A stretch of DNA of 64,000 bases from Flaccisagitta enflata. Lineage: Eukaryota. Within the stretch, counting starts at the first letter, position 1; every line of letters starts with the position of its first letter. The notes under the pieces were generated by a model, which ran no database searches, was not told where the DNA came from, and saw nothing but the letters and a program-made list of their open reading frames with translations. Location of the stretch: the NCBI GenBank assembly GCA_965153355.1, contig OZ231126.1, positions 8,432,001-8,496,000 on the forward strand. Reading direction: 5' to 3'. A program made the position numbers and the translations under genes. This document shows positions 23,559-55,300 of the stretch, piece by piece.

Positions 23559-24032
23559 CTTTATGAGTGTAAGGCGGCAAAAATCATCAATCAATCGTAA
23601 ATGAAGGGACACGCCAAACTGGCGACTATAGCTTTCGTTGATAAACAGACGGAGAGACCTGTAAGGCGGTAACAAGGCCAAGTAGGCCAACAATGCGTTC
23701 TCTTTGAATGAGTTTTTTATAAATGAATGTTATTTATGAATGTATGTCTTTTTTTATGAATGACTGTTGTTTATGAATGAATGATTTAACGAATGAATTA
23801 TTCAATGTATGCTTCTTTTACTGAGTTGGTACGAATTTTCTGATGAAAAAATGCAAGATTCTGATGTTTTTAAGAGTGCGTTACAGACAGACAGGCAGAC
23901 CAACCAACAGACGGACTCAGCCTGATATAGAGATGCGAGGACACATCTAAAAATCATCAATCAATCGTAAATGAAGGGACACGCCAAACTGGCGACTACA
24001 GCTTTCATTGATAAACAGACGGACAGACCGAC

Positions 24033-24070
24033 CTGATGGTCCTAGCATCCATGGCAAAGAAACAGACAGA
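24033..24070 (-). CDS. Candidate 38-nt exon of the fukutin/LicD-like locus
   Basis: Pyrimidine tract and CAG acceptor, GTCGGT donor; reads (S)LSVSLPWMLGPSG; phase 2/1 fits the flanking candidate exons. Confidence 0.35.
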
Positions 24071-52300: not shown

Positions 52301-55300
52301 TCCTGATGCCTCCCACTTTGGCGTCAGACACCACACCAACTCCACAGATGCCCTACCTGTCAGTGATGGGTCCATCAAGGATCCTGATGCCTCCCACTTT
52401 GGCGTCAGACACCACACCAACTCAACAGATGCCCTACCTGTCAGTGATGGGTCCACCAAGGATCCTGATGCCCCCAACTTTGGCGCAAGGTGCAACTCCA
52501 ACTCCACAGATGTCCTACCTGTCAGTGATGGGTCCATCAAGGCTCCTGATGCCTCCCACATTGGTGTCAGGTACCACACCATTGACACAAACTCAACAGA
52601 TGCCCTACCTGTCAGTGATGGGTCCATCAAGGATCCTGATGCCTCCCACTTTGGCGTCAGGTGCCACTCCCACTCCACATCATGCCCTACCTGTCAGTGA
52701 TGGGTCCATCAAGGATCCTGATGCCTCCCACTCCACAGATGCCCTACCTGTCAGTGATGGGTCCATCAAGGATCCTCATGCCTCCCACTTTGGCGTCAGG
52801 TACCACACCAACTCAACAGATGCCCTACCTGTCAGTGATGGGTATCAGTGATGGGTCCATCAAGGATCCTGATGCCTCCAACTTTGGCGTCAGGTGCAAC
52901 TCAAACTCTACAGATGCATTACCTGTCAGTGATGGGTCCATCAAGGATCCTGATGCCCCAAACTTTGGCGTGAGGTGCAACTTCAACTCAACAGATGCCC
53001 TACCTGTCAGTGATGGGTCCACCAAGGATCCTGATGCCCCCAACTTTGGCGTCAGGTGCAACTCCAACTCCACAGATGCCCTACCTGTCAGTGATGGGTC
53101 CATCAAGGATCCTGATGCCTCCCACTTTGGCGTCAGGTGCCACTCCCACTCCACAGATGCCGTTGTTCTTCTCCATCACAATTTCTCCCGCGCATTTTGT
53201 GCCGTGATTGTTGGATGAGTCTTCTCTTCTGGGTTCGGGATCGTTCTGTGCATGTCATGGAAAAAAAATGTCCTTTTTAAAACCCTATTTTTTTTTCTTT
53301 GGTAGATCTGCGCTGACTAACGCCATGCTCACGACTATGCAGCTATGTTAAGGTATTGGTGATGACTCCTCCTACGCTCTAAGATCTCTAAGATCTGATG
53401 TCAACTCACCAGTTCAGCCAAGGATGAGGCTCGGTAAGATAGAAATTTTCTGCTTCATAAAAGCGCTGTAAAATTCATACATTGGATGTATCGATTTTTC
53501 CATCATCTCTACACATTTGATTATATTGATTTTTTGATTTATTACGGTTCCATCATTTCTACACATACAGTTTGAAACTTGGCATCAGATTATGACTCGA
53601 GGCAAATTTGCATATGTCCAACAAAGATTGCAAGTTTATTGTTTGTTGGGTCAGATAGGTCAAATTAACATGAGCTCAGATATTCAAGTGGAAAGCTAAG
53701 ACAGTAAAAAGAAGGCAGCAAATAGCGCGAGTACAACTAAGGTCATTGATCTAGATTGCTAGTAGCAAATGGCAAAGAGATGCTACTCTACTAAAAAGTC
53801 TTGACTGATAATAGCTTAAACTGTAAAATACACATTCCTGAGAAATGTGATGGTATCTTGAATATATTCTCCTTTGACTACCTGGCGCTGATATTTTCGC
53901 ACGCCCTGTTTTGGGATGATACATATATAAATCTCGATGAAGCTTCTAATGTAACTACTATAGTATTGTACTGCTATGGTAAACTGTTGTTTTGCAAGGC
54001 AAATTTGCCAGGCAAATTACTTTTCACCAAGCCTCATCCATGGTTGAAACGGTAAAACGATATGTCCACGTTTTGTTTTCACACTCAACAATTTGTCTTA
54101 GACATCATCTCTCTCATTCTCCACATAGGCATTATGAACTGATTAACAGACGGACCAGAGGACAATCGGACGGACCAAACTTTTCAATGAGATGCCATGT
54201 TGCATATGAAGAGGATCGTTTTGCGCGCCGTGATTGGCTAACCTGCGCATTCTTCCGTTTTCCATTGGCGTCCCAAGAAGCGTCAAAATCAAAGTTGTTT
54301 TTGAGGTCTTTGTGTGTGTGATCTACACCGTCGTCCATCACACAAACGGTGATGCCTCTGCCAGTGATCCCGCTTTGCCACGCGGGAACCACATTCAAAT
54401 CGAAGTTGTTCTTACCGCCAGTTTGGCCTTTTTTTAATCGGAGGCAAAAAACGAAAGAGTGAACAAGAAGAACGTGTTAAAACATTAGTGCTGTCTAATG
54501 TTCTTGTTGTCATTGTTGTTTTTGTTCTTGTTACCATCGTTGTTTTCGTTCTTGTTGTCATCGTTTTTTTTATCGTTGTAATGGTTTTTCATCGTTGCCA
54601 TCATTGTTTTTCATAGTTGCCATTGTTGTTGTTCATCGTTGTCATTGTTGTCATTCATCGTTGTAATTGTTGTCTTTCATCGTAGTCATTGCTGTCTTTC
54701 ATCGTTGTCTTCATTGTTGTGTTTCATCGTTGTCATTGTTGTCTTTCATCGTAGTCATTGTTGTCTTTCATCGTAGTTATTGCTCTCTTTCATCGTTGTC
54801 ATTGTTGTGATTGATGGTGATGATTACCTTGATTGCAAAGATACCATTGATCCTTCCACTTGGTATCATTTAAGTTAGGACAAGATTTTTGCTCCATAAC
54901 ATCGTCTCGTTTCTCTTCATCAGCTTCATCGTCTGTCATTAATAATCAAGGCGAGGGAAACAATTACAATTCATCATAAATCAAATGATATTCTTGATCT
55001 TTTCTTTCCTAATGAACTTAGGTTCATTGCATTGGATAGGAATAGATAGCTGTAACAGGCAAGCTCAGCCTTATCCTTGCTGTTTCTACTTGATTAACAA
55101 AGTAGAAAACATGGTGGAAAAATCTTAATAGTGGGAGCATCTTGTCCGCACTGCAGGCTTTTTTCAATTTGAGCTATTTGCTCTTACAGAGAATTCAAAT
55201 TTATGGCAATTCACTATACATTCTTTTTTTTTAGTTGCGGACACGCAACTCTATAAGAGGCTTTGTCCGTCCGTCCGTCGGTCTGTCGGTCGGTTGGTCG

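What the first reader, a model, noticed from the sequence alone, without database searches (positions are those of the whole stretch)
23559..53160. Recurrent tandem duplication centred on exon-intron boundaries in two neighbouring loci
There are at least six cases: exon 4 donor (x12), exon 7 end, exon 11 acceptor, the stop-codon region, the candidate acceptor at 32744 (x5, 32725-33145), and the ~92-bp intron segment 23569-23660 repeated at 23661/23949-24030. Inference: a lineage-specific mutational process or selective filter produces splice-site-anchored repeats that lengthen introns while leaving the ORF intact, a possible route to intron expansion and new exons.
Basis: partly seen in the sequence, partly recalled or inferred. 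Interest (0 to 1): 0.7.

Follow-up and report, generated by a model that had tools for sequence, protein, structure and literature searches.

The report
Exon-edge copies inside introns ("mirages")
An enzyme gene of this marine animal carries extra copies of its own exon ends inside its introns, as do about 1 in 25 splice sites sampled elsewhere in the genome; this repeat type is already known, looks like harmless leftover DNA duplication, and adds little to intron length.

Summary
Partly real. Locus 1 is an intact 11-exon proprotein convertase gene. The stop-codon repeat involves no splice site. Locus 2 fails: it is an orphan, transposon-split LicD-family exon whose repeat misses the acceptor, and the 32744 'exon' has no support.

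Control in the same genome: 27 of 630 sampled splice sites (4.3%) carry such a copy, always on the intron side. That is about 2x a survival-only null (gene bootstrap 1.2-2.9 on non-dispersed DNA; 0.8-2.4 with dispersed repeats). Allowing for slower decay of copies whose source is a conserved exon, it falls to 1.2-1.6x, with intervals including 1. Copies drift neutrally, are about 5x commoner beside microsatellites, fill 2% of intron DNA, and made no new intron (0 of 315).

This is the 'mirage' minisatellite of amphioxus and human F7 intron 7; this scan found it before in other genomes. The measured rate and null test, and the clustering in a few genes, were not in the papers I searched.

The parts
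42927..56885 (-). Proprotein convertase gene (kexin/furin-type subtilase), 11 exons: 56885-56105, 54932-54828, 54427-54243, 53245-53085, 51559-51405, 51083-50960, 50402-50258, 49106-48855, 47504-47284, 43921-43821, 43342-42927; 881 aa, open
   Evidence: S8_pro-domain, Peptidase_S8, P_proprotein; 42% to P0016 over 813 columns; exon 3-4 joint in an RNA contig
52189..53161 (-). Exon 4 donor mirage: 12 x ~81 bp (77 exon nt + GTAG); true donor after 53085, 11 decoy donors; each unit ends in TAG/TAA, and the first stops read-through in frame; fills 896 of 1525 nt of intron 4
50623..50660 (-). Old copy of the exon 6 end and donor region (source 50990-50953), 330 nt away across a dispersed element; GT lost
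50171..50235 (-). Old copy of the exon 7 3' part (source 50336-50272), offset 101; donor lost
43496..43643 (-). Copy of the exon 11 acceptor with its (TTCA)n microsatellite and 29 exon nt, 182 nt upstream; use of the decoy meets a stop after 15 codons
42781..43014 (-). 59-bp x3.6 repeat spanning the stop codon into the 3' flank; no splice site in the unit
32722..33147 (.). Local array of five 85-92 bp units; acceptor-like CAACAG at 32744 but no evidence of an exon
23579..24029 (.). 81-bp spaced duplication (23579-23659 and 23949-24029) between repeat ends; does not include the acceptor
22752..23558 (-). Orphan terminal coding exon of a LicD/fukutin-like nucleotidyltransferase family gene, split by an insertion; catalytic exon absent from the window
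22823..23424 (.). 600-bp fold-back element (82% self-inverted) inserted in that exon

Best explanation
These are 'mirages': ordinary short local DNA duplications (mostly 30-130 bp units) that happen to straddle a splice site. Step 1 (inferred): a slip or break during replication or repair copies a nearby stretch; this is commoner beside microsatellites. Step 2 (shown): the template is genomic DNA, not spliced mRNA. Step 3 (shown as a pattern): selection removes duplications wholly inside exons, while one that straddles a single splice site leaves the real exon whole and puts the copy in the intron. Step 4 (inferred from F7 and amphioxus data, weakly seen here): the spliceosome keeps using the site next to the exon body; decoy use would mostly give a stop or frameshift. 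Step 5 (shown): the copy drifts neutrally while its source is frozen by protein selection, so these pairs stay recognisable about 1.4-1.5x longer than intron-intron pairs. Step 6 (inferred): unequal exchange or slippage sometimes expands two copies into arrays such as the 12-mer. Steps 1, 3 and 5 account for most of the excess at splice sites.
For: All 31 copies (27 control + 4 gene 1) lie on the intron side. No control duplication is wholly exonic (96 rows) where 24-32% would be without selection. Mismatch by codon position 31/472, 41/474, 75/470 = 6.6, 8.6, 16.0%: the 1:1:2 pattern of a frozen source plus a neutral copy. GT/AG kept in 28 of 31, about 26.5 expected at that drift (my arithmetic). 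Offsets are multiples of 3 in 8 of 31. Copies continue like the intron rather than the next exon in 30 of 31, never like cDNA. Microsatellite within 40 nt: 11 of 85 sites vs 16 of 545 (OR 4.9, P 3e-4; de-duplicated 8 of 73 vs 12 of 470); purely intronic duplications also sit by microsatellites (7 of 23 vs 9% expected, P 0.004). Simulated lifetime gain 1.37-1.53; intron DNA turns over fast between recent paralogs. After that correction O/E is 1.56 (0.90-2.17) or 1.16 (0.57-1.73). RNA contigs: no depth in 3 of the 4 bins wholly inside the exon 4 array.
Against: A residual excess remains on non-dispersed DNA: 20 vs 12.7 at r=1.5 (P 0.011), 20 vs 14.1 after stratifying by microsatellite (P 0.037), 18 vs 10.4 for units of 50 bp or more (P 0.003), though these treat events as independent. 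Site copies cluster in a few genes (4, 4, 2, 2; P 5e-5), and in two of them all 4 non-dispersed duplications are at splice sites. Four more events start within 8 nt of a donor. One RNA contig was placed on the seventh unit's donor; it cannot be told from the true donor. RNA evidence is thin: contigs only, exons 1-5 only.
Confidence: 0.72

Rival explanations
1. A mutational process tied to exon edges (splicing-coupled polymerase pausing, R-loops or nucleosome edges in germline-transcribed genes) makes duplications start preferentially at splice sites, in some genes more than others.
For: Residual O/E about 1.5 on non-dispersed DNA; clustering by gene; donors outnumber acceptors 17 to 10, plus four events starting at a donor; gene 1 has 4 of 20 vs 27 of 630 (P 0.012, chosen after the fact).
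Against: Bootstrap intervals include 1 after the lifetime correction; no excess once dispersed DNA is counted; purely intronic duplications are not nearer to exons than random (median 220 vs 183 nt); microsatellite adjacency raises both classes.
Confidence: 0.17
2. The copies are kept by selection as working decoys or spare splice sites (tuning splicing, feeding nonsense-mediated decay, or backing up the true site).
For: All 11 decoy donors at exon 4 keep GT and score like the true one; 19 of 31 copies score within 1 bit of, or above, the true site; human pseudo-sites can be activated when the true site is lost (PMC1557585, passages).
Against: GT/AG retention 28 of 31 matches neutral drift; older copies (exons 6, 7) have lost it; array units are not independent; no frame preference.
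Confidence: 0.07
3. The duplications are a main route to intron growth and to new introns or exons in this lineage.
For: 59% of gene 1 intron 4 and 10% of its intron bases are such copies; 4 of 17 control donor copies would extend the exon in frame without a stop (two events shared by paralogs); the model is proposed for amphioxus globins (PMC3087553, passages).
Against: 2.0% of 225 kb control intron; 0 of 315 introns with the tandem-duplication gain signature; no coding constraint.
Confidence: 0.04

Closest known systems
Amphioxus 'mirages' (Adh3, troponin C, globins BflGb6/BflGb9, PGBD5; PMC3087553 and PMC3902484, passages read)
   Same: Minisatellite-like tandem copies of an exon-intron boundary, at donors and acceptors, units of tens to about 160 bp, many keeping AG/GT, normal splicing retained; proposed there as a route to new introns.
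   Different: Described gene by gene there. Here a rate (27 of 630 sites), a null test, a microsatellite link and neutral decay are measured. Many cases here are two spaced copies, not long arrays.
Human F7 intron 7 37-bp VNTR and similar arrays in CBS, 6-16, lamin B2 and PDGF (PMC1557585, abstract and passages read)
   Same: First unit spans the donor; downstream pseudo-donors identical to the true one; the most upstream donor is used. The PDGF case is also an 81-bp unit.
   Different: F7 unit has 4 exon nt and 33 intron nt; the exon 4 unit here has 77 exon nt and 4 intron nt. Length polymorphism is shown for F7, untested here.
Intron gain by tandem genomic duplication and internal tandem repeats at exon-intron boundaries (PMC2812944 passages; PMC4974935 search listing only)
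   Same: Local duplication of coding sequence with splice signals.
   Different: There the duplication creates the intron (donor from one copy, acceptor from the next). Here the introns pre-exist and 0 of 315 show that signature.

Membership tests
mirage minisatellite | Repeat unit spans an exon-intron boundary | tested here: met
   Exon 4 donor, exon 11 acceptor, exon 6 donor; exon 7 copy aligns only to 14 nt before the donor; not met for the stop, 32744 and 23579 repeats
mirage minisatellite | Copies lie in the intron and the authentic exon stays intact | tested here: met
   31 of 31 on the intron side; 881-aa ORF open
mirage minisatellite | Minisatellite-size unit in tandem | tested here: met
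   81 bp x12; control units 31-126 bp; exon 6, 7 and 11 cases are two copies only
mirage minisatellite | Many copies keep GT/AG | tested here: met
   11 of 11 decoy donors; 28 of 31 nearest copies
mirage minisatellite | Normal splicing is not disturbed | tested here: inconclusive
   RNA contigs cover exons 1-5; one exon 4-5 joint is ambiguous between the true donor and the near-identical seventh unit; contigs drop rare forms; raw-read run X12 hit only shared repeats
mirage minisatellite | Length instability or polymorphism | tested here: inconclusive
   Indels and shared variants among the 12 units and different copy numbers in paralog pairs; no second haplotype examined
intron gain by tandem genomic duplication | Intron ends match the flanking exons at an offset equal to intron length | tested here: not met
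   0 of 315 control introns; gene 1 offsets (81-330) differ from its intron lengths
tandem exon duplication (alternative exons) | Copy holds both splice sites and shows coding constraint | tested here: not met
   One site per copy; codon position 2 no better kept than position 1
retrocopy / cDNA-templated insertion | Copy joins exon to next exon | tested here: not met
   0 of 31

The most novel reading that the evidence does not exclude
Beyond survival and slower decay, short duplications in this genome are steered to splice boundaries in a subset of genes by a transcription- or splicing-coupled mutational process acting at exon-adjacent microsatellites. Hot genes (this convertase, one SNF transporter, one myosin) have four boundary copies each and almost no other unique duplication. 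This would link splicing directly to where DNA mutates.
Probability: 0.17. Interest if true: 0.7.

Novelty: new member of a known kind. Interest (0 to 1): 0.33.

Why it matters
The repeat type is known, but amphioxus papers call its mechanism unclear. The control here gives a rate (about 4% of sampled splice sites), shows the copies are neutral genomic leftovers, and ties them to neighbouring microsatellites. It also sets limits on the idea that they build introns (2% of intron DNA, no gains). The genome should hold thousands of natural decoy-site experiments (extrapolated from a 0.1% sample), useful for testing how spliceosomes pick among identical sites. Annotation pipelines can mistake the copies for exons or misplace RNA joints, as happened.

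Tried and rejected
Homologue search for the locus 2 peptide in the large protein set: nothing; the family was found through paralogs in G000. Upstream exon for locus 2 in the window or nearby: none. The 71-bp x22 array at 19482-20970 as a seventh case (strong acceptor-like site): rejected, it is a dispersed satellite with 445 matches on all nine contigs. Window-level comparison (site 2.8%, unique intron 3.2%, exon 0.66%): set aside because it counts source and copy twice in introns. Joint 51559-52609 as proof of decoy use: rejected as ambiguous (unit 7 matches the exon end at 80 of 81). The 81 = 27 codon unit as a coding repeat: rejected, in-frame stop in the unit. cDNA template: rejected. Position near chromosome ends: no effect (P 0.21). 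Exon finder over the window: recovered 8 gene 1 exons, none at 32744. Lineage: not established; a guess from recall (arrow worm) led to one paper search with nothing relevant. Searches for a published genome-wide enrichment test (look-up) found none; subscription papers, including Gao and Lynch 2009 and the original Adh3 paper, were not available, and supplements were not read.

Full report
Setting. The window is G000:C1:8432001-8496000 in a 794-Mb, 9-contig genome. It is dense in microsatellites, satellites and small dispersed elements. RNA runs holding exon 1 words are mostly marine plankton metatranscriptomes. The lineage was not established; the nearest named convertases are from molluscs, a brachiopod, an annelid, rotifers and a cnidarian at 57-68% on exon 8.

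Locus 1. Eleven exons on the minus strand join into an open 881-aa protein with GT-AG introns. Pfam finds the S8 pro-domain, Peptidase_S8 and P domain; it aligns at 42% over 813 columns to P0016. Four of 20 splice sites have an intronic copy of the exon edge. Exon 4: 12 units of about 81 bp (77 exon nt + GTAG), 70-80 of 81 matches to the exon unit except one with a 24-nt deletion. All 11 decoys keep CAG|GTA, and reading past the first donor meets TAG at once. Exon 11: a copy 182 nt upstream with an identical acceptor; using it stops after 15 codons. Exons 6 and 7: older copies that have lost GT. The 59-bp repeat at the stop codon contains no splice site.

Locus 2. The frame at 23558-23425 is the last coding exon of a LicD-family gene: paralogs at 59-94% carry the catalytic exon with a weak LicD match. 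In the window it is split by a 600-bp fold-back element, and its likeness to paralog L012 stops at 23570. No catalytic exon lies in the window, and none of 23 genome matches is near it. The 81-bp repeat ends 18 nt before the acceptor. (Notebook entry 2 gives the acceptor as 23562; the AG is at 23560-23559.) The 32744 array is real and local, but the proposed exon has no Pfam hit, no paralog, no coding signal, and runs into a dispersed-repeat end.

RNA. Four runs were laid on 51402-57370. Raw-read run X12 hit only shared repeats and is uninformative. Contigs of X1-X3 cover exons 1-5, and one joins exon 3 to exon 4 at the modelled bases. One X1 contig was placed from exon 5 to the donor at 52609, but that unit matches the true exon end at 80 of 81, so the joint is ambiguous. 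Three of the four bins wholly inside the array have no depth in any run. Contigs drop rare forms, so silence is not proven.

Genome control. Pfam searches of G000 for myosin head, SNF, kinesin, aldehyde dehydrogenase and the convertase exon guided 80 fetched regions. With 20 search loci these made 93 pieces, 850,629 bp. A first pass kept 125 of 152 junctions; 11 of 250 sites had a copy. Own HMMs gave 310 of 344 junctions plus 5 carried over: 315 introns, 630 sites, 225 kb of intron. A copy was a 40-nt window with at least 31 matches, 25-1500 nt away, not simple sequence. 27 of 630 sites (17 donors, 10 acceptors) have a copy with 10 or more exon nt. For independence I dropped 11 pieces that were second members of recent paralog pairs and one shared event, merged 10 rows by hand, and left out units over 250 bp: 20 of 544 sites. 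Further arrays at edges outside the junction set (5-7 copies, pieces 61, 62, 91, 92) were not counted. The sample is conserved genes with introns under 7 kb, about 0.1% of the genome.

Enrichment. Units were placed at random in the collapsed gene space, rejecting wholly exonic placements (survival-only null). Non-dispersed DNA: 20 of 43 events at sites vs 9.5 expected (P 3e-4). All DNA: 20 of 70 vs 12.7 (P 0.02). A copy whose source is a conserved exon stays detectable longer. The codon-position mismatches (6.6, 8.6, 16.0%) show this directly, and simulations using the measured indel ratio (0.14) and intron turnover give 1.37-1.53x. At 1.5x the expectations are 12.7 (P 0.011) and 17.2 (P 0.25). 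Events cluster by gene (P 5e-5), so these P values are too small. Bootstrapping genes gives O/E 2.08 (1.19-2.90) falling to 1.56 (0.90-2.17), and 1.57 (0.77-2.35) falling to 1.16 (0.57-1.73). An excess over bare survival is likely; an excess beyond slower decay is not established.

Mechanism. Shown: genomic template, intron-side placement, loss of exon-internal events, neutral drift of copies, association with microsatellites for both site and intronic events. The microsatellite could also postdate the duplication; order was not tested. Inferred from general knowledge: slippage or break repair at the microsatellite makes the first copy, and unequal exchange expands arrays. Taken from PMC1557585 (abstract and passages): the most upstream donor is chosen among identical ones.

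Consequences. Copies are 2.0% of control intron bases, against 25.5% dispersed repeats, 9.8% microsatellites and 3.1% other local duplications; in gene 1 they are 1127 of 11,313. No intron of 315 looks born from a tandem duplication. 13 of 17 control decoy donors would give a stop or frameshift.

Known kind. PMC3087553 (passages) names these 'mirages' in amphioxus, calls the mechanism unclear and proposes intron gain; PMC3902484 (one passage) adds PGBD5. PMC1557585 lists five human genes. PMC2812944 (passages) treats repeats at boundaries in human segmental duplications. I found the F7 paper; the name 'mirage' came from earlier notes of this scan and was checked. No genome-wide enrichment test turned up.

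Verdict. A new member of a known kind, with a measured rate and a mostly neutral explanation. The open point is the clustering of boundary copies in a few genes. Interest 0.33.

Noticed in passing
window 19482-20970: 71-bp x22 array with an acceptor-like word in each unit; a dispersed satellite family with near-identical arrays on all nine contigs (445 matches), so probably mobile.
   Followed up: partly
window 22823-23424: 600-bp fold-back element inserted in the LicD-family exon; no second copy in the window.
   Followed up: partly
L014/L015 (G000:C2:58.657 Mb): The whole last exon of a LicD-family paralog is duplicated about 870 bp apart (90%); one copy has lost its acceptor AG and has an early stop.
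   Followed up: partly
G000: LicD/fukutin-like family with 23 matches to the catalytic exon, including one whose catalytic and last parts lie in a single frame (L016) and one with an internal stop.
   Followed up: no
L137 and L138 (G000:C2:86.63 and 86.80 Mb): Myosin paralogs with 5-7 tandem copies of an exon start stacked before the real exon; not in the counted junction set.
   Followed up: no
L088 and L089 (G000:C4:85.38 and 85.63 Mb): Kinesin paralogs with 4-6 copies of an exon end at a 96-bp period, a close analogue of the exon 4 array.
   Followed up: no
L116 (G000:C2:6.93 Mb) and L128 (G000:C3:9.12 Mb): An SNF transporter and a myosin gene each have four boundary copies and no other non-dispersed duplication.
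   Followed up: partly
control introns: Microsatellites fill 15-19% of bases 20-300 nt after donors and 3% beyond 500 nt; dispersed repeats show the reverse gradient.
   Followed up: partly
recent paralog pairs: Intron DNA turns over fast: at 2-8% third-position divergence only 40-81% of unique intron windows still match.
   Followed up: partly
window 55228-55400 and 55805-56060: Small dispersed elements in intron 1 draw very deep coverage from plankton RNA contigs; the first is also hit by reads of run X12, which did not match the exons, so the element is shared or widely transcribed.
   Followed up: no
window 44110-46059, 29378-30454, 30461-31146, 39964-40595: Longer satellites (339 x3.5, 163 x4.5, 162 x5.6, 13 x53, 35 x18) unrelated to splice sites.
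   Followed up: no
window 56105-56885: The convertase pro-region has a long charged insertion and several dibasic sites compared with P0016 and P0024.
   Followed up: no
window 5477-5827 (+): Cys-rich open frame (CRCKKSQCKNGRCACC) of transposase-like look, by recall.
   Followed up: no
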